This document shows positions 28,792 to 50,969 of a stretch of 64,000 bases of DNA, piece by piece. The position numbers were made by a program, and so were the translations under genes. Numbering within the stretch: position 1 is the first letter of the stretch; each line of letters begins with the position of its first letter. This DNA is from a phage, in sequence record PZ386951.1; one strand, written 5' to 3'. The notes under the pieces are model-generated. The model did no database searches, was not told where the DNA came from, and saw nothing but the letters and a program-made list of their open reading frames with translations.

Positions 28792-28978
28792 AATAATCTA
28801 TTGGTAAGAGAGTACGATATATTTCAAACTTTGGACCTTTTTCATAAGCATCAAAAGTTTCTGTGAATTTATTATAAGCATATGCATCTACAAATTCGAG
28901 AATGACTTGTGATACAGAAGTAGAAACATCTCCACCTTCTTTTTGAGCAATGACAATTGTTTCTAAGTAAGCTTTCAT
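28790..28978 (-). CDS. hypothetical small protein
   Basis: 62 aa with ATG start; start overlaps the gene 30 stop. Confidence 0.45.
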   Translation of the reverse strand: MKAYLETIVIAQKEGGDVSTSVSQVILEFVDAYAYNKFTETFDAYEKGPKFEIYRTLLPIDY

Positions 28979-30438
28979 AAACCAGTTACCTCATGAAAAT
29001 CGCCAAATACATCTTCGAACGTATTAGCTTTAGTTTTATCTTCACGTAAACGAATCGCAATCGGAAGAAATAATTTAACGTAATCAGTGCGGCCATCAGA
29101 TTTTAACCAACCGTTGCATTCGCACTCTAGAATTTTTCCAATATAATAATTTTGGTTTTCCATAATGCGAGTACGGTCAAGTTCATGTGATTTTACGCCG
29201 GCTTTATCTTTTAAGCCTGAACCAGCATTTACTTTAATTTTTCCACACTCTGACTCAAGAATAAATCCACCTGCTTTAGTAGGGTCTTTACGGTGAGGAT
29301 AAATTCCTACAATTTTTAAATCAACATCAATTACTTCTTTAAATTTATAAAGATTTTTTGAACGAGCATTTTCCCATAATCCATCGATATTTTTGAGAAT
29401 AATACCTTCAAGACCTTGGTCAATATACTTTTTATAAATTACCTTAGCTTCATCTAGGTTATTTACTACTTGGTTTTCAATTAAAATTACTTTATCATAG
29501 CCTGATGTCATTTGTTCTAGTTTAGAAAAACGTACATCATATTTTAAACGAAATGCAGGAAGACCGTATATTTCTACCAACGGGACATAATCCCAGACCT
29601 GAAACTTCATGCATTGAGCTTCTTTTTCAGAAATGGTTCCCTTTAAAGATTTATTGGCGATGCCATTAGATGCAGTACGTGATTCAGCTACTTCGGCGAA
29701 TTCTTTATCTTTACTAATTTCAGGATAAGCATCAAAAAGAAAATCTAGGCCTTCTGGCTCCTTTTTAACTTGCTCATGGTATACCAATTCGCCATCAATT
29801 AACACACCTTCTGGATGAATCTGGCGGGCTTCGGCGGTCATTTTAATTAACTCTTCCTTAAGAAGATCTAATCCTAGATATTCATTACCAGCTCGTGATA
29901 AAAGACGAACATCATCTAATTCATCACCTCTAACTTCAGCAAAACACCGAGCCCCATCAGCTTTTAACTGGGCAAAGGCTGGAAATTTGATATTCTTATT
30001 AATGCCTTTTTCATCATAAGAACTTGCAAGCATTTGAGGTTGTTCAGGAATTAAACCTGGCCAAACTTTGTTTGCAATAGATATTGAAGCACCGCATTCA
30101 AGGTCTCGCATCATCACTCGACGCAAAACTTCAACATCATCTTTTTTACCATCAGTAATATATCCAGTTAATTCCTCAATTGCCGCATTTCCAGTCAATT
30201 TCCGAGTAGCTAACGTGAATTCAATGAAGTCAAGCATATCGGTAAGAGTCAACATTCCAAAACTCTGGGTAGCAATACCCGGTTTAGGCCATTTCTTGAT
30301 ATAATACTGTAACCCACGAGAATAAGTCAGACGATATACTCGTTTAAGCAATTCATTATCTTTATTCTTTTCAAGAATTGCTTGCTTCTGCTTAGTTGAA
30401 CCAATAGATGCTATTTCGTTCAGAATTTTAAGAATCAT
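28975..30438 (-). CDS. 30: ATP-dependent DNA ligase gp30
   Basis: 487 aa; MILKILNEIASIGSTKQKQAILEKNKDNELLKRVYRLTYS and KADGAR adenylation motif; matches T4 DNA ligase. Confidence 0.96.
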   Translation of the reverse strand: MILKILNEIASIGSTKQKQAILEKNKDNELLKRVYRLTYSRGLQYYIKKWPKPGIATQSFGMLTLTDMLDFIEFTLATRKLTGNAAIEELTGYITDGKKDDVEVLRRVMMRDLECGASISIANKVWPGLIPEQPQMLASSYDEKGINKNIKFPAFAQLKADGARCFAEVRGDELDDVRLLSRAGNEYLGLDLLKEELIKMTAEARQIHPEGVLIDGELVYHEQVKKEPEGLDFLFDAYPEISKDKEFAEVAESRTASNGIANKSLKGTISEKEAQCMKFQVWDYVPLVEIYGLPAFRLKYDVRFSKLEQMTSGYDKVILIENQVVNNLDEAKVIYKKYIDQGLEGIILKNIDGLWENARSKNLYKFKEVIDVDLKIVGIYPHRKDPTKAGGFILESECGKIKVNAGSGLKDKAGVKSHELDRTRIMENQNYYIGKILECECNGWLKSDGRTDYVKLFLPIAIRLREDKTKANTFEDVFGDFHEVTGL

Positions 30439-30704
30439 TGTTCATCCTTTAGAGTTTGGTTTACAGCTCTATTATAAATCAATTCATCATTAAGCTCAGG
30501 CAAAGACCTATGATATGTAGTTCTAACTTTATTTCCTTGCATCCAGTGCTTGACGTAAATGAAACCTTGTTCTACGCATTTTTTAAAAATTCGTTCGTCT
30601 TTTTGAGCTCGGAATTCTGGATTGCATCTAAAAAATTGATTTACGTGACCGTAATCACGTGTAGTATTACCTTCATTTTCATAAATAGTGTGAACAACAA
30701 ACAT
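30435..30704 (-). CDS. hypothetical protein (30.1 position)
   Basis: 89 aa with ATG start; operon packing. Confidence 0.55.
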   Translation of the reverse strand: MFVVHTIYENEGNTTRDYGHVNQFFRCNPEFRAQKDERIFKKCVEQGFIYVKHWMQGNKVRTTYHRSLPELNDELIYNRAVNQTLKDEQ

Positions 30705-31564
30705 TAGAATGCTCCTTGGAAAATATTATCACCACTACCACTAGTAAGTCTATTAAAATACCCTGAGTCGCCAGGCTTAATATAACTCCACGTATGGAAT
30801 GGATGGAATGGATTCTGATATGAGTGTGTATAATATGGATGATATGGATTATAAGGATTAAATCCAGGAGTTCTCCAAGTAGTGTTCCAACGAAAAGAAT
30901 CGTTTTTAATCATCTTTTCAATTACATCTTTTATAGCTTTTTCACTATCAAAACTTTCTTTATTTTCCTTCGATGGAAAAAGCTTATTCTCTACATCATT
31001 CCATGTATAAACTCGCTGTGCAGTTTTTGGAATACTGTCACGCTCTCCTCGAGCCATCCAATAAACAGGAACATTTAATATTTCACTCGCGTGATCGCAG
31101 TGGTGAGCGAGATCGTCAATATAACAAATTACGTTATATTTTTCTTTTGCCTTTTTGAACAGCTCTTCTTTTGAAGAATCATGACCACACATCAGTACTT
31201 CTGAGAAGGCACCAGGAAAAAGAGCATTCAAATTAAATTGACGATTCAGCAGAGCGTCAATAGAATCACCCAATGCTGTAACAGCTACAAAATTATAATC
31301 TTCTTTTAATTTGTTAATTACACACAGGGCATCTTTATATGGAGACAAATAACGAATAAAATCTGAACGATTATACTTTTCGATTAATTTAACACCAAGT
31401 TCTTCATCACAGTTAAAGAGTTTACCAGGAGAAATAAATTTTTCGTCCTGAATCATTTTTAAAATATGTTCTAATGGAAGATTATATTTCTGAGCAAAAT
31501 AAGGAAGGCCTGATTGCCAGCTTAAACATACTCCATCAATATCAGTTAAAATAGTAGGCTTCAT
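30704..31564 (-). CDS. HAD-like hydrolase with Pro/Tyr/His-rich C-terminal tail (30.2 position)
   Basis: 286 aa; N-terminal ILTDIDGVCL resembles HAD motif I; C-terminal NPYNPYHPYYTHSYQNPFHPFHTW low-complexity tail. Confidence 0.6.
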   Translation of the reverse strand: MKPTILTDIDGVCLSWQSGLPYFAQKYNLPLEHILKMIQDEKFISPGKLFNCDEELGVKLIEKYNRSDFIRYLSPYKDALCVINKLKEDYNFVAVTALGDSIDALLNRQFNLNALFPGAFSEVLMCGHDSSKEELFKKAKEKYNVICYIDDLAHHCDHASEILNVPVYWMARGERDSIPKTAQRVYTWNDVENKLFPSKENKESFDSEKAIKDVIEKMIKNDSFRWNTTWRTPGFNPYNPYHPYYTHSYQNPFHPFHTWSYIKPGDSGYFNRLTSGSGDNIFQGAF

Positions 31565-32019
31565 AGAGAGTCTCTTAATAGGTTTAACACATCAATAAAT
31601 TCAGCTTCGGTTAGTATTGTATCATCTTTTGTTAGACCACTAGCCATGCTGTGCTTCAAAACTTTTCCTTTTGAGGCTTGTAAGGCATCACGAAACCCCT
31701 TGTTTTGAATCGCTGCTTCAAAATATGCATTTGTGTATAATTCTTTCCACGCTGTGGAGTATCTTGAAAACGGAACTCCAAGCCAGAAGAGGGTCCCACG
31801 GTCCTGAGCTCTAGCATAAGACCTTCCAGCTTGTTGGGCGGCAAGCCCGGATAACCCAAATACACGACGTTGTTGTTCAACATTTTTCACCTTGCATCCT
31901 TGGAGGAATCCTTCAAGACCTCCAAATTGAATACCATCCATGACGAAAGGCCATTGGGCAAAATTACTTAATGCGCATGATGGCCATCTAAAATTGCTTC
32001 TAATCTCTAACTCAGACAT
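31561..32019 (-). CDS. NADAR / YbiA-like (DUF1768) protein (30.3 position)
   Basis: 152 aa from ATG 32019 (track starts at a TTG at 32025); motif LSNFAQWPF matches the FSNFA-WP signature of YbiA/NADAR proteins. Confidence 0.7.
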   Translation of the reverse strand: MSELEIRSNFRWPSCALSNFAQWPFVMDGIQFGGLEGFLQGCKVKNVEQQRRVFGLSGLAAQQAGRSYARAQDRGTLFWLGVPFSRYSTAWKELYTNAYFEAAIQNKGFRDALQASKGKVLKHSMASGLTKDDTILTEAEFIDVLNLLRDSL

Positions 32020-32218
32020 TTTCAATACTTATAATTTCAACATCAGCCCAATGACCATAGCAAGGAAGACGAAATTCAACTGGCCAGTTAGGGTCCTTTT
32101 CTAATATAATAGACTTAACTTGTGGTTCTTCATGTTCATCAGTATATGGATTTTTATCTGTTACTTTATATGTGACCTTAATGTACTGAATTCCAAAAAT
32201 CTTATTAATTATATTCAT
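32012..32218 (-). CDS. hypothetical protein
   Basis: 68 aa with ATG start. Confidence 0.5.
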   Translation of the reverse strand: MNIINKIFGIQYIKVTYKVTDKNPYTDEHEEPQVKSIILEKDPNWPVEFRLPCYGHWADVEIISIENV

Positions 32219-33173: not shown

Positions 33174-33506
33174 TTATTTTACTACTTTCCAGTGCTGCAT
33201 GTCAAGTTTACCAACTTTTTTCATCTTCTCAATTAAGCGTTCGGCACGTTGGCGAGCTGTAACATAATACCATTCACCCAATTCATTTTGTTCAATTTTT
33301 CCAACGATTACCGTATTCAATTCATAAATCCAACCAGTAAAGAAATTATGAACTTGAATTGTAAAGGTGAAATCTGTTCCCATGCCTTCTGTTGTTTCTA
33401 CTTCAATAATATCACCTTCAACTGCCATTAAGAACCACATAGTTTCATCATATTTACCATTGAAGCATTTAGTTTTAACTGCAGCGTTCAGATTAATCGT
33501 TTTCAT
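33174..33506 (-). CDS. hypothetical protein (30.8 position)
   Basis: 110 aa with ATG start. Confidence 0.55.
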   Translation of the reverse strand: MKTINLNAAVKTKCFNGKYDETMWFLMAVEGDIIEVETTEGMGTDFTFTIQVHNFFTGWIYELNTVIVGKIEQNELGEWYYVTARQRAERLIEKMKKVGKLDMQHWKVVK

Positions 33507-49733: not shown

Positions 49734-50387
49734 TTAATACTTGCAAGATTTCACAGTTTCAATAAAAACTTTTTTAGCTTCCTGTGAATCGATATTTAAA
49801 ATTTTTCTATAAGCCTTTAACTTTATAGAATAATTATTCCAGACTAAATTATCAGTCTGTTCATCATGTTTATCAATTATATTTAAAAACGAATCAAGCA
49901 AGATAAACGTCTCAAACGAAATTATATTCGATTGAAGTAGTTTAAAAATATAACTTGATTGAACTTTTGGATTATACTCAAAGATTTCTTTAAAAGCAGA
50001 AACTTCAACTTTTTTACTAAAATAATAAATGTTGCGAATATCTTCTTCAAACTTAAATTTAATTTGCTTTAAGCGTCCGATATATTCACGATAAAACACA
50101 AGTGCATCAGCGTCAGAGATGTCACCAATCCAAGCATCTTGGTTAGCAACCAAATTGCTTATAAAGATTAAAGCAAGTTCCTTTAATTTATATTTTTCTG
50201 ATAACTTCTGGAAAAAATACTTATCCCTTCGCTTTTGATAAGCGGCATCAGACACCCGCATGCACCAATTATACTTAATAACATCATACTTTCCATTCAT
50301 ATGTTGTTTTATCATTAAGTATAATTTATAAACTGATTTACCATCAATGTATCTTTCACCACCAGCAGGCATGCGGAGTTTAATCAT
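49734..50387 (-). CDS. 59: helicase loader gp59
   Basis: 217 aa, same length as T4 gp59; MIKLRMPAGGERYIDGKSVYKLYLMIKQHMNGKYD. Confidence 0.95.
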   Translation of the reverse strand: MIKLRMPAGGERYIDGKSVYKLYLMIKQHMNGKYDVIKYNWCMRVSDAAYQKRRDKYFFQKLSEKYKLKELALIFISNLVANQDAWIGDISDADALVFYREYIGRLKQIKFKFEEDIRNIYYFSKKVEVSAFKEIFEYNPKVQSSYIFKLLQSNIISFETFILLDSFLNIIDKHDEQTDNLVWNNYSIKLKAYRKILNIDSQEAKKVFIETVKSCKY

Positions 50388-50722
50388 AGTAGAAAATCTA
50401 ACGTATTCGTTTTTTCACATCTAACAACAGAAGGACGTAAAAGATTTTCGTCAATAGCTTCTGACTGAATTTTTTCAATTATACCCGAAGGAATAAATTT
50501 AGCAAATTGAGTTTCAGGAATAGAGTTTTCTTCCAAGAATGCTGTCGTAGCTTCAAGATAACTCATTCCAAACTCTTCTACCATTTTTTCAATAATAAAT
50601 CCATTTTCTTGACGATCAAGAAGCTTTGCAATTTCATCCTTTTCTTTCTTAATTGAAAGTTCTTTTTCTGAAAGACCGGTCTCATCGACCGGACGAATAT
50701 CATTTAGAGAAAACTGTGTCAT
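50384..50722 (-). CDS. 33: late transcription co-activator gp33
   Basis: 112 aa from MTQFSLND (track starts at a TTG at 50731); T4 gp33 position and size. Confidence 0.88.
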   Translation of the reverse strand: MTQFSLNDIRPVDETGLSEKELSIKKEKDEIAKLLDRQENGFIIEKMVEEFGMSYLEATTAFLEENSIPETQFAKFIPSGIIEKIQSEAIDENLLRPSVVRCEKTNTLDFLL

Positions 50723-50969
50723 AAAGTTCAACTACCTCTTCAGTTTCAGCTTCAAACACATCACGGTTATCTTTATGATACAAAGCTAATAGACGATTAA
50801 ACATCTTACCATCAACACCGAGTTCATCTTTAGCACGAATTCGAATATCTTTAATCAGTTCATTATAACCGGAAATTTTCAGTTTATGATCAGATGCTTC
50901 TTTAATAAATTTAGCCAAGTCTTCGCCATGGATAGCTTCATCAAATTCAACCATTTCTTTTTTAGCCAT
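50700..50969 (-). CDS. dsbA: double-stranded DNA binding protein DsbA
   Basis: 89 aa, same length and position as T4 DsbA. Confidence 0.85.
   Translation of the reverse strand: MAKKEMVEFDEAIHGEDLAKFIKEASDHKLKISGYNELIKDIRIRAKDELGVDGKMFNRLLALYHKDNRDVFEAETEEVVELYDTVFSK

What the first reader, a model, noticed from the sequence alone, without database searches (positions are those of the whole stretch)
30704..31564. HAD-like hydrolase with an unusual Pro/Tyr/His-rich C-terminal tail
The 286 aa protein starts with a HAD motif I-like LTDIDGVCL and ends in the low-complexity tail NPYNPYHPYYTHSYQNPFHPFHTWSY. Aromatic and histidine-rich Pro repeats are unusual for a small phage metabolic enzyme and could mediate metal binding or protein interactions.
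Basis: seen in the sequence. Interest (0 to 1): 0.35.

Follow-up and report, generated by a model that had tools for sequence, protein, structure and literature searches.

The report
T4 gene 30.2 phosphatase, floppy tail
This is the T4-type phage gene 30.2, which encodes a predicted nucleotide-type phosphatase of a well-known enzyme superfamily joined to a fast-evolving, disordered aromatic/proline-rich tail; the tail is real but is probably a tether to a partner protein rather than a metal binder, so the finding is modestly interesting rather than surprising.

Summary
ORF 30704-31564 (-) encodes 286 aa with LTDIDGVCL at residues 6-14. Residues 236-261 are the most Pro/Tyr/His/Trp/Phe-rich 30-aa stretch of any ORF over 100 aa in the window. 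The gene is the orthologue of T4 30.2 (192/195 identical in the core) and sits in the coupled block 30.3-30.2-30.1-ligase.

The tail is not a frameshift artefact. Eight length alleles all stay in frame, and dN/dS is 0.29 in the tail against 0.03 in the core. The tail is predicted disordered. It evolves by slippage of 9-nt repeats and carries small conserved islands.

Histidine is not conserved across the family, so metal binding is unsupported. A partner-tethering role is the best inference, with the partner unknown. Long tails co-occur with gene 30.1. A resemblance to the sliding-clamp motif is weak and absent in this allele.

No functional study of 30.2 was found. Knock-down in T4 shows no fitness effect.

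The parts
30704..31564 (-). CDS of the T4 30.2 orthologue (286 aa plus stop codon)
   Evidence: ORF list. PHROG 420, E 1.4e-90. T4 annotation NP_049815 in the same gene order. 655 phage records match by megablast.
30980..31564 (-). HAD-superfamily phosphatase core, residues 1-195
31529..31543 (-). HAD motif I, D8-I-D10-G-V (nucleophile Asp and general acid/base Asp)
   Evidence: D8 and D10 are invariant in 50 family members. They follow strand 1, residues 3-6. They align with the DMDGV of cdN structure 2jao.
31310..31522 (-). Helical C1 cap inserted after motif I (residues about 15-85), including invariant W16 and S18
   Evidence: Helices 15-25, 31-39, 45-48, 53-64, 67-71 and 76-85 in the model. 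W16-x-S-G-L aligns with F-E-S-G-L of cdN.
31277..31279 (-). HAD motif II, T96, at the end of strand 2
   Evidence: Nearly invariant, with Ser in a few members. Strand 90-95 precedes it.
31169..31171 (-). HAD motif III, K132
   Evidence: Invariant. It is the first residue of helix 132-141.
31112..31117 (-). HAD motif IV, D150-D151 (Mg2+ ligands)
   Evidence: Invariant. It directly follows strand 144-149.
30707..30979 (-). C-terminal extension, residues 196-286
   Evidence: Absent or under 25 aa in 38 of 102 relatives and 40 aa or more in 60. dN/dS is 0.29, and 17 of 97 alignment columns carry indels against 0 of 195 in the core.
30908..30949 (-). Amphipathic helix at the start of the tail (residues 206-219, DSEKAIKDVIEKMI)
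   Evidence: Predicted as a helix in both AlphaFold runs; the 10-residue blocks covering it have mean pLDDT 66 and 84 in the first run and 49 and 68 in the second. A comparable helix-like segment is present in most long tails.
30863..30889 (-). Conserved island WNTTWRTPG (residues 226-234)
   Evidence: Identical in all ten Tequatrovirus alleles compared. 'TWRTPG' also occurs in Mosigvirus tails. W230 is nearly invariant in type-A tails.
30782..30859 (-).
   Evidence: Encoded by 9-nt tandem repeats: ATGGAATGG x2.2 at 30794-30813 and ATATGGATT x3.1 at 30833-30860. This is the site of the in-frame indels between alleles. pLDDT is below 50.
30734..30778 (-). KPGDSGYFNRLTSGS (residues 263-277), the T2-type version of the conserved 'G-I-E-Y-L-x-N-R/Q-P-T' island
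   Evidence: T4-type alleles read KPGGIEYLYNRPT. The same motif occurs in Enterobacter, Citrobacter, Cronobacter and other phage tails. E262, Y263 and T269 are nearly invariant in type-A tails.
30707..30733 (-). C-terminal GDNIFQGAF (residues 278-286)
   Evidence: NIFQGAF is identical in all ten Tequatrovirus alleles compared. It is not conserved outside that genus.

Best explanation
The ORF is the orthologue of T4 gene 30.2, an accessory protein with early mRNA and middle-phase protein accumulation, made of two parts.

(1) Residues 1-195 are a C1-capped HAD-superfamily phosphatase belonging to a divergent, phage-restricted branch of the NT5C 5'(3')-deoxyribonucleotidase family. By the established HAD mechanism, D8 would attack a phosphomonoester to form an aspartyl-phosphate. 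D10 would act as general acid/base. T96 and K132 would hold the phosphate, and D150/D151 would hold Mg2+. The closed helical cap and the cdN-like W16-x-S-G-L element point to a small substrate, most probably a (deoxy)nucleoside monophosphate.

(2) Residues 196-286 are a short amphipathic helix followed by an intrinsically disordered Trp/Pro/Tyr-rich linker. The linker changes length by slippage of 9-nt repeats but keeps a few conserved islands. It most likely acts as a flexible tether carrying short linear motifs that bind a protein partner in trans. It is unlikely to be a metal-binding site.

Shown: the fold, the motifs, the family link, the reading frame, selection on the tail, predicted disorder and the synteny. 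Inferred: phosphatase activity, the substrate class and the tethering role of the tail.

For: Motifs: D8, D10, K132, D150 and D151 are invariant and T96 nearly so in 50 members. These positions are also kept in more distant relatives, with Ser at motif II and Glu at 150 in some.

Family: 1365 clusters match the profile. Distant members P0220, P0242 and P0230 pass Pfam's NT5C gathering score. 9 of 50 close members hit NT5C below threshold. The profile aligns motif I, W16/SGL and motif II with cdN structure 2jao.

The tail is real and constrained. Gene lengths of 837 to 864 nt are all multiples of 3, and the indels relative to T4 are +21, -3 and +6 nt. dN/dS is 0.29 in the tail against 0.03 in the core. 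Conserved islands are shared across genera.

Disorder: pLDDT is below 50 in two independent runs, and the motif does not dock on the core.

Expression in T4: early RNA and middle protein, the same class as ligase and 30.1 (PMC9697503 supplements).

Context: the start and stop codons of 30.3, 30.2, 30.1 and 30 overlap. The 30.2 core lies upstream of the ligase gene within the fetched flank in 73 of 77 viral loci, mostly directly adjacent or separated only by a 30.1-sized gene. This holds even where ligase identity is 35-40%.
Against: The window protein itself has no significant Pfam or NCBIfam hit. A profile of the C-terminal half finds no HAD structure by sequence. The NT5C link therefore rests on intermediate sequences and on structure.

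No partner for the tail has been identified. Most family members lack a tail altogether, so the tail is not needed for the core activity.
Confidence: 0.6

Rival explanations
1. The tail tethers the phosphatase to the product of the neighbouring gene 30.1 (DUF3045), and possibly through it to DNA ligase, forming a small complex encoded by the coupled 30.2-30.1-30 genes.
For: 27 of 29 long-tail loci carry a 30.1 homologue between 30.2 and ligase, against 7 of 48 short-tail loci. The divergent small ORFs are 30.1 homologues by hhalign (probability 96.7%, E 4e-10). One metagenomic protein, P0015, is a 30.2-core/DUF3045 fusion (Pfam E 8e-15). The genes are translationally coupled.
Against: The co-occurrence is confounded by phylogeny, because both features are concentrated in enterobacterial T4-like clades. 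L010-L015 and L019 keep 30.1 with almost no tail. 30.1 stays 97-99% identical across the two tail alleles, so there is no co-variation. The fusion comes from a single 1.4-kb assembly.
Confidence: 0.15
2. The tail carries a sliding-clamp-binding motif. Like gp43, gp33, gp55 and ligase, gp30.2 would then be tethered through a flexible linker to the gp45 clamp at the replication fork.
For: The linker-plus-motif architecture matches that described for gp55 and gp33 (PMC2988020, PMC7892883). The T4-type motif GIEYLY keeps the chemistry of LDFLF at the four contact positions of the ligase peptide (PMC6212786); score 14, p 0.04-0.07. Karamvirus tails contain K[LM]SDLF, close to their ligase's PLDDIF (p 0.01). 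10 of 57 tails score p<0.05 against a matrix built from 47 ligase clamp motifs.
Against: The window's own allele has no such match (p 0.77-0.78). Only two lineages score. Matched and mismatched tail/ligase pairs score alike (8.6 vs 8.3). The conserved island extends to ...N-R/Q-P-T and lacks the acidic flank typical of clamp motifs. The pattern was defined after seeing the motif.
Confidence: 0.08
3. The core is a DNA- or RNA-end phosphatase (a 3'-phosphatase that heals ends for the adjacent ligase) rather than a free-nucleotide phosphatase.
For: Deeply conserved adjacency to DNA ligase. Weak PHROG hit to polynucleotide kinase (E 0.0024). PNKP phosphatase domains appear among the viral structural neighbours.
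Against: The model has a full helical C1 cap over the active site, which by general knowledge of HAD enzymes is typical of small-substrate members. PNKP-type phosphatases are capless. The closest sequence and Foldseek relatives are nucleotidases.
Confidence: 0.12
4. The His/Tyr-rich repeats bind a metal ion.
For: The last 50 residues hold 4 His interleaved with Tyr in this allele.
Against: His is not conserved. T4 has 2 in the last 50 residues, two Mosigvirus tails have none in that stretch, 27 of 57 long tails have none in the last 50 residues, and His is depleted 0.69x relative to the core. The region is predicted disordered and varies by indels.
Confidence: 0.04
5. The tail is a frameshift or read-through artefact, or neutral junk without function.
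For: Low-complexity sequence, hypervariable in length, and absent from most of the family.
Against: Eight length alleles are all in frame. The indels are multiples of 3. dN/dS is 0.29, not about 1. The alternative frames are closed. Islands are conserved across genera. T4 protein was detected in proteomics, although that does not prove the tail is retained.
Confidence: 0.03

Closest known systems
Bacteriophage T4 gene 30.2 (NP_049815, UniProt P32275; PHROG 420)
   Same: Same gene. The core is 192/195 identical. The position between 30.3 and 30.1/ligase is the same. The tail architecture and the C-terminal NIFQGAF are the same.
   Different: This allele is 8 aa longer. It has extra Tyr/His/Pro repeats (+21 nt). 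It carries the T2-type KPGDSGYFNRLTSGSG in place of T4's KPGGIEYLYNRPTC.
5'(3')-deoxyribonucleotidases cdN/mdN and the NT5C family (Pfam PF06941; PDB 2jao, 2i7d, 1q92, 3bwv)
   Same: C1-capped HAD fold, DxDGV motif I followed by an aromatic residue and SGL, and motifs II-IV. These are the best Foldseek hits, and intermediate relatives pass the NT5C threshold.
   Different: Only 17-21% identity. The window protein does not reach the Pfam threshold. It has a family-specific invariant NRxxNL..FPxAF element. It carries a 90-aa disordered tail, whereas the solved NT5C-type chains among the top fold matches are only 167-200 residues long. The substrate is untested.
T4 polynucleotide kinase/3'-phosphatase (PseT) HAD domain
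   Same: A phage HAD phosphatase with DxDG motif I that is associated with a ligase-based repair or sealing pathway.
   Different: PseT-type domains lack a cap (general knowledge) and act on polynucleotide ends. Here a full cap is modelled, and the similarity is marginal (PHROG 415, E 0.0024; HAD_PNKP, E 0.003, in one distant relative).
Clamp-binding tails of T4 gp55, gp33 and gp43, and the ligase loop (LDFLF motif)
   Same: A variable disordered linker carrying a short conserved hydrophobic motif. T4-type GIEYLY resembles LDFLF.
   Different: There is no acidic flank. This allele has no match, and there is no co-variation with the ligase motif. Binding is untested.

Membership tests
HAD superfamily | Rossmannoid alpha/beta core fold | tested here: met
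HAD superfamily | Motif I, DxDx[TV], after strand 1 | tested here: met
   D8-I-D10-G-V. D8 and D10 are invariant in 50 members. Strand 3-6 precedes the motif.
HAD superfamily | Motif II, Ser/Thr at the end of strand 2 | tested here: met
   T96 follows strand 90-95. It is nearly invariant and is Ser in a few members.
HAD superfamily | Motif III Lys and motif IV acidic pair | tested here: met
   K132 and D150-D151 are invariant. K132 starts helix 132-141, and the DD pair follows strand 144-149.
HAD superfamily | Mg2+-dependent phosphoryl transfer through an aspartyl-phosphate | not testable with these tools
   Needs an enzyme assay with D8N/D10N controls.
NT5C / 5'(3')-deoxyribonucleotidase family (PF06941) | Score above Pfam's gathering threshold | tested here: not met
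   No NT5C hit for the window protein at E<=1. 9 of 50 relatives hit below threshold, best E 1.2e-4.
NT5C / 5'(3')-deoxyribonucleotidase family (PF06941) | Homology through intermediate sequences | tested here: met
   P0220, P0242 and P0230 match the 30.2 profile at E 5e-21 to 6e-20. They pass the NT5C gathering score of 24.8 with 39.7, 25.7 and 26.4 bits.
NT5C / 5'(3')-deoxyribonucleotidase family (PF06941) | Closest solved structures are dNT enzymes | tested here: inconclusive
NT5C / 5'(3')-deoxyribonucleotidase family (PF06941) | dNMP phosphatase activity | not testable with these tools
   Needs a substrate screen.
T4 30.2 orthologous group (PHROG 420) | Sequence match and conserved position next to 30.3, 30.1 and ligase | tested here: met
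   PHROG 420 at E 1.4e-90. The flanking genes are DUF3045 and Phage_30_3. T4 has the same gene order.
gp45 sliding-clamp-binding proteins | LDFL[FLY]-like hydrophobic/acidic motif on a flexible linker | tested here: not met
   The best match in this allele is SGDNIF, p 0.77. The T4-type allele GIEYLY is borderline at p 0.04-0.07.
gp45 sliding-clamp-binding proteins | Physical binding to gp45 | not testable with these tools
   No multimer prediction or binding assay is available, and gp45 is not encoded in this window.
PNKP-type polynucleotide phosphatases | Capless HAD domain open to polynucleotide ends | tested here: not met
   A six-helix C1 cap spans residues 15-85 in the model.
His-rich metal-binding tails | Conserved His ligands | tested here: not met
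   His is depleted 0.69x in tails, and 27 of 57 long tails lack His in their last 50 residues.

The most novel reading that the evidence does not exclude
The disordered tail is a modular tether that recruits an NT5C-type phosphatase to the phage replication and nick-sealing machinery, through gp30.1, ligase or the gp45 clamp. Nucleotide dephosphorylation, or end cleaning, would then happen at the fork rather than in bulk cytoplasm. The hypervariability of the tail would reflect co-evolution with that partner. A further possibility is that gp30.2 is the unidentified 'additional T-even protein' that the neighbouring anti-DarT factor AdfN (30.3) was suggested to need (PMC11825919).
Probability: 0.15. 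Interest if true: 0.6.

Novelty: new variant of a known kind. Interest (0 to 1): 0.3.

Why it matters
Gene 30.2 is one of many T4 genes still listed as of unknown function, yet it is kept upstream of DNA ligase, usually directly adjacent, across very distant T4-like phages. A confident enzyme class, testable catalytic residues and a defined tail with conserved islands turn it into a tractable target. A simple substrate screen and a tail pull-down would show whether T4-like phages run a dedicated nucleotidase alongside their replication and repair genes. If the tail does tether the enzyme to the replisome or to gp30.1, it would be a new example of short-linear-motif recruitment in phage DNA metabolism. 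If not, this is an ordinary accessory HAD phosphatase with a floppy appendix.

Tried and rejected
- Direct family searches with the single protein gave nothing significant in Pfam or NCBIfam, only chance-level thiamin pyrophosphokinase hits.
- A profile of the C-terminal half of the core (A3) searched against PDB sequences returned only spurious hits, so motifs III/IV could not be aligned by sequence to a solved HAD.
- AlphaFold with a type-A tail alignment (A4) was run to see whether the GIEYL island docks on the core. The tail stayed at pLDDT 25-40 and the core model got worse.
- The tail was searched as a portable module. No other ORF in the window carries the motifs. A tblastn of a Karamvirus-type tail against 50,697 phage records found one place per record; the rows that could be placed fall in or beside the 30.2 gene.
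- The clamp-motif hypothesis was tested with a matrix from 47 ligase motifs and with per-genome matching. It is weak and absent in this allele.
- Metal binding was rejected on lack of His conservation.
- Frameshift artefact was rejected.
- Cellular homologues: one hit in 185,579 species genomes, and it is a phage-sized contig. The search patterns only catch close relatives.
- The afdb50 fold library was unavailable.
- Literature searches for 30.2, gp30.2, NP_049815, T4p204 and P32275 gave no functional study.
- The promoter and terminator scan showed no enrichment over shuffles.

Full report
**1. Observation.** The minus-strand ORF 30704..31564 encodes 286 aa. LTDIDGVCL is residues 6-14. The flagged stretch NPYNPYHPYYTHSYQNPFHPFHTWSY is residues 236-261. 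It is followed by 25 more residues (IKPGDSGYFNRLTSGSGDNIFQGAF), so it is not the literal end of the protein. The composition is extreme. 20 of 30 residues are P/Y/H/W/F, the highest of any 30-aa window in the 61 ORFs over 100 aa of this window (mean 4.4, sd 2.2).

**2. Identity and context.** The window is a T4-like (Tequatrovirus) genome.
- Downstream lie a DUF3045 protein (30.1, 30435-30704) and the 487-aa DNA ligase (28975-30438).
- Upstream lies a Phage_30_3 protein (31561-32025).
- T4 has the same order, and its 30.2 (NP_049815, 278 aa) is 192/195 identical in the core.
- 655 phage records hold the gene, and PHROG 420 ('unknown function') matches at 1.4e-90.
- Start and stop codons overlap throughout 30.3-30.2-30.1-30.

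The upstream neighbour 30.3 is the NADAR anti-DarT factor AdfN (PMC11825919). In T4, 30.2 is transcribed early and its protein accumulates in the middle phase, the same class as ligase and 30.1 (PMC9697503 supplements). Knock-down gave no fitness effect (PMC11879866 supplement). No paper addressing its function was found.

**3. The core is a HAD phosphatase of the NT5C lineage.** The single sequence has no significant Pfam or NCBIfam hit. An alignment of 50 relatives shows D8, D10, K132, D150 and D151 invariant and T96 nearly so.

AlphaFold models residues 1-195 at pLDDT 93-98. Each motif sits where the HAD fold requires it: motif I after strand 1, a six-helix C1 cap at residues 15-85, T96 after strand 2, K132 at the start of a helix, and the DD pair after strand 4.

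At sequence level, the family profile aligns motif I, W16-x-S-G-L and motif II with cdN (E 0.044). An exhaustive profile search finds 1365 clusters, most of 190-215 aa. Distant members P0220, P0242 and P0230 pass Pfam's NT5C gathering score and keep all the motifs in alignment.

The DxD form of motif I marks a phosphatase or phosphomutase rather than a dehalogenase. This rests on established knowledge of HAD enzymes. The closed cap favours a small substrate. A (deoxy)nucleoside monophosphate is therefore the best guess, but it remains an inference. Core dN/dS is 0.03, so the enzyme is under strong constraint.

**4. The tail is real, disordered and fast-evolving.** The other frames are closed. 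Relative to T4 the tail differs by +21, -3 and +6 nt. Across Tequatroviruses the gene is 837, 840, 843, 846, 849, 855, 861 or 864 nt long, always a multiple of three.

The indels fall in the NPY/HPY/HPF repeat region, which is encoded by 9-nt tandem repeats. Tail dN/dS is 0.29, and 17 of 97 columns carry gaps against 0 of 195 in the core. Selection is therefore relaxed but still purifying.

Both AlphaFold runs give a short helix (residues 206-219) and then pLDDT below 50 to the end. The second run used an alignment chosen to align the conserved island.

Conserved islands exist. WNTTWRTPG and NIFQGAF are identical in all ten Tequatrovirus alleles compared. The terminal island has two alleles: the T4 type KPGGIEYLYNRPT, and the T2 type carried here, KPGD(S/A)GYFNRLTSG. 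The T4-type island G-I-E-Y-L-x-x-Q/R-P-T recurs in tails of Enterobacter, Citrobacter, Cronobacter and other phages whose linkers are otherwise unalignable. Other clades end in LRAYY/LRATF-type or LLNKVxANDS-type motifs.

Family-wide, tails are enriched in Trp (3.4x), Pro (3.1x) and Thr (2.2x) but depleted in His (0.69x). 27 of 57 long tails have no His in their last 50 residues. The Tyr/His richness is therefore local to this genus, and metal binding is not a conserved role.

**5. What the tail might bind.** In the 77 viral loci, the 30.2 core lies upstream of the ligase gene within the fetched flank in 73. It is mostly directly adjacent or separated only by a 30.1-sized gene, even at 35-40% ligase identity. 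30.3 is nearby in about half.

Long tails go with a 30.1-type gene between 30.2 and ligase: 27 of 29 long-tail loci against 7 of 48 short-tail loci. The divergent small ORFs were confirmed as 30.1 homologues by hhalign. One metagenomic protein fuses the two. This points to gp30.1 as a candidate partner, but the association is confounded by clade and has exceptions.

A second idea came from the literature. T4 gp43, gp33, gp55 and ligase bind the gp45 clamp through an LDFLF-type motif on a flexible linker or loop (PMC2988020, PMC7892883, PMC6212786). The ligase motif is in this window (EGLDFLFD, residue 231), as is the gp33 C-terminus, NTLDFLL.

The T4-type island GIEYLY resembles it (p 0.04-0.07), as does a Karamvirus helix K[LM]SDLF (p 0.01). 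The allele in this window has no match (p 0.77). Only two lineages score, and matched and mismatched genome pairs score alike. I keep the clamp idea as a low-probability rival.

**6. Comparison with known families.** The protein is T4 30.2. Its core works like, and descends with, the NT5C deoxyribonucleotidases, but it fails Pfam's own threshold and has family-specific invariant residues (NRxxNL..FPxAF). It is unlike PNKP-type phosphatases because it has a cap. The close family appears confined to phages: the only hit among 185,579 species genomes is a 178-kb phage-sized contig. Several GenBank and JGI records already call relatives 'HAD-like' or '5'(3')-deoxyribonucleotidase', so the fold assignment is not new. 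The analysis of the tail may be.

**7. Verdict.** This is a real, well-supported HAD/NT5C-type phosphatase with a genuine, selected but disordered C-terminal tether. The substrate and the partner are unknown. Interest is modest (0.3). It is a new variant of a known kind.

Noticed in passing
window 31561-32025 (-): The upstream neighbour is the 30.3 / Phage_30_3 protein, characterised in T4 as the NADAR anti-DarT factor AdfN. The paper notes that AdfN may need an additional T-even protein to work outside infection (PMC11825919). The T4 annotation also lists an internal out-of-frame gene 30.3', and the window has the matching 75-aa ORF at 31656-31883 (-).
   Followed up: partly
window about 29734-29757 (-), ligase residues 228-235: DNA ligase carries the published gp45 clamp-binding motif EGLDFLFD in a loop. 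Across 70 T4-like loci this loop keeps an L-x-x-[LMIF]-[FML] core followed by acidic residues, but it varies by lineage (for example DLFSMFDEE, PLDDIFGD, SLAGFMGDD).
   Followed up: yes
window 50384-50731 (-): The gp33 orthologue ends in ...NTLDFLL, the C-terminal clamp-binding epitope described in the literature.
   Followed up: partly
P0015 (302 aa, 1.4-kb Logan contig); compare L019 4001-4907: A 30.2 core fused in frame to a DUF3045 (30.1) domain. In the related locus L019 the two are separate genes. This could be a true fusion or an assembly error.
   Followed up: partly
P0066 and P0069 (Yersinia phage phiR1-RT and a related metagenomic protein); L035 and L073: These homologues replace the disordered tail with a C-terminal extension of about 110 aa that looks folded (…GFGWVYCSNRKNLEEEYTKRFL) and has no Pfam match.
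   Followed up: no
P0084 (347 aa), P0102 (430 aa), P0151 (591 aa), P0208 (660 aa): Distant family members have other architectures. P0084 has a Cys-rich C-terminus (…CVGCSKEG…CGGAPWCCP). P0102 has a 220-aa tail ending in NLRATF. P0151 and P0208 have N-terminal regions of about 385 and 505 aa, with no significant Pfam match, ahead of the HAD domain.
   Followed up: no
L099 (NZ_JBHSCL010000010.1, 178,077 bp): A contig the size of a T4-like phage genome, carrying a 30.2 homologue, sits in a Flagellimonas marina genome assembly. It is probably a co-sequenced phage or contamination.
   Followed up: no
window 33176-33205 (-): A near-consensus sigma-70 promoter-like site (TTGACA, 18 nt, TAAAAT; 11 of 12) lies upstream of the 30.7 orthologue. 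It could be the early promoter for the 30.7-to-30 gene block, although promoter-like sites in the region are no more frequent than in shuffles.
   Followed up: no
L075, L076 and L077, 3974-4570: Distant 30.2-like proteins (26-28% identity, motif IV 'ED') occur in other large phages away from any ligase. In L076 and L077 they lie near clamp-loader-like and PhoH-like genes.
   Followed up: no
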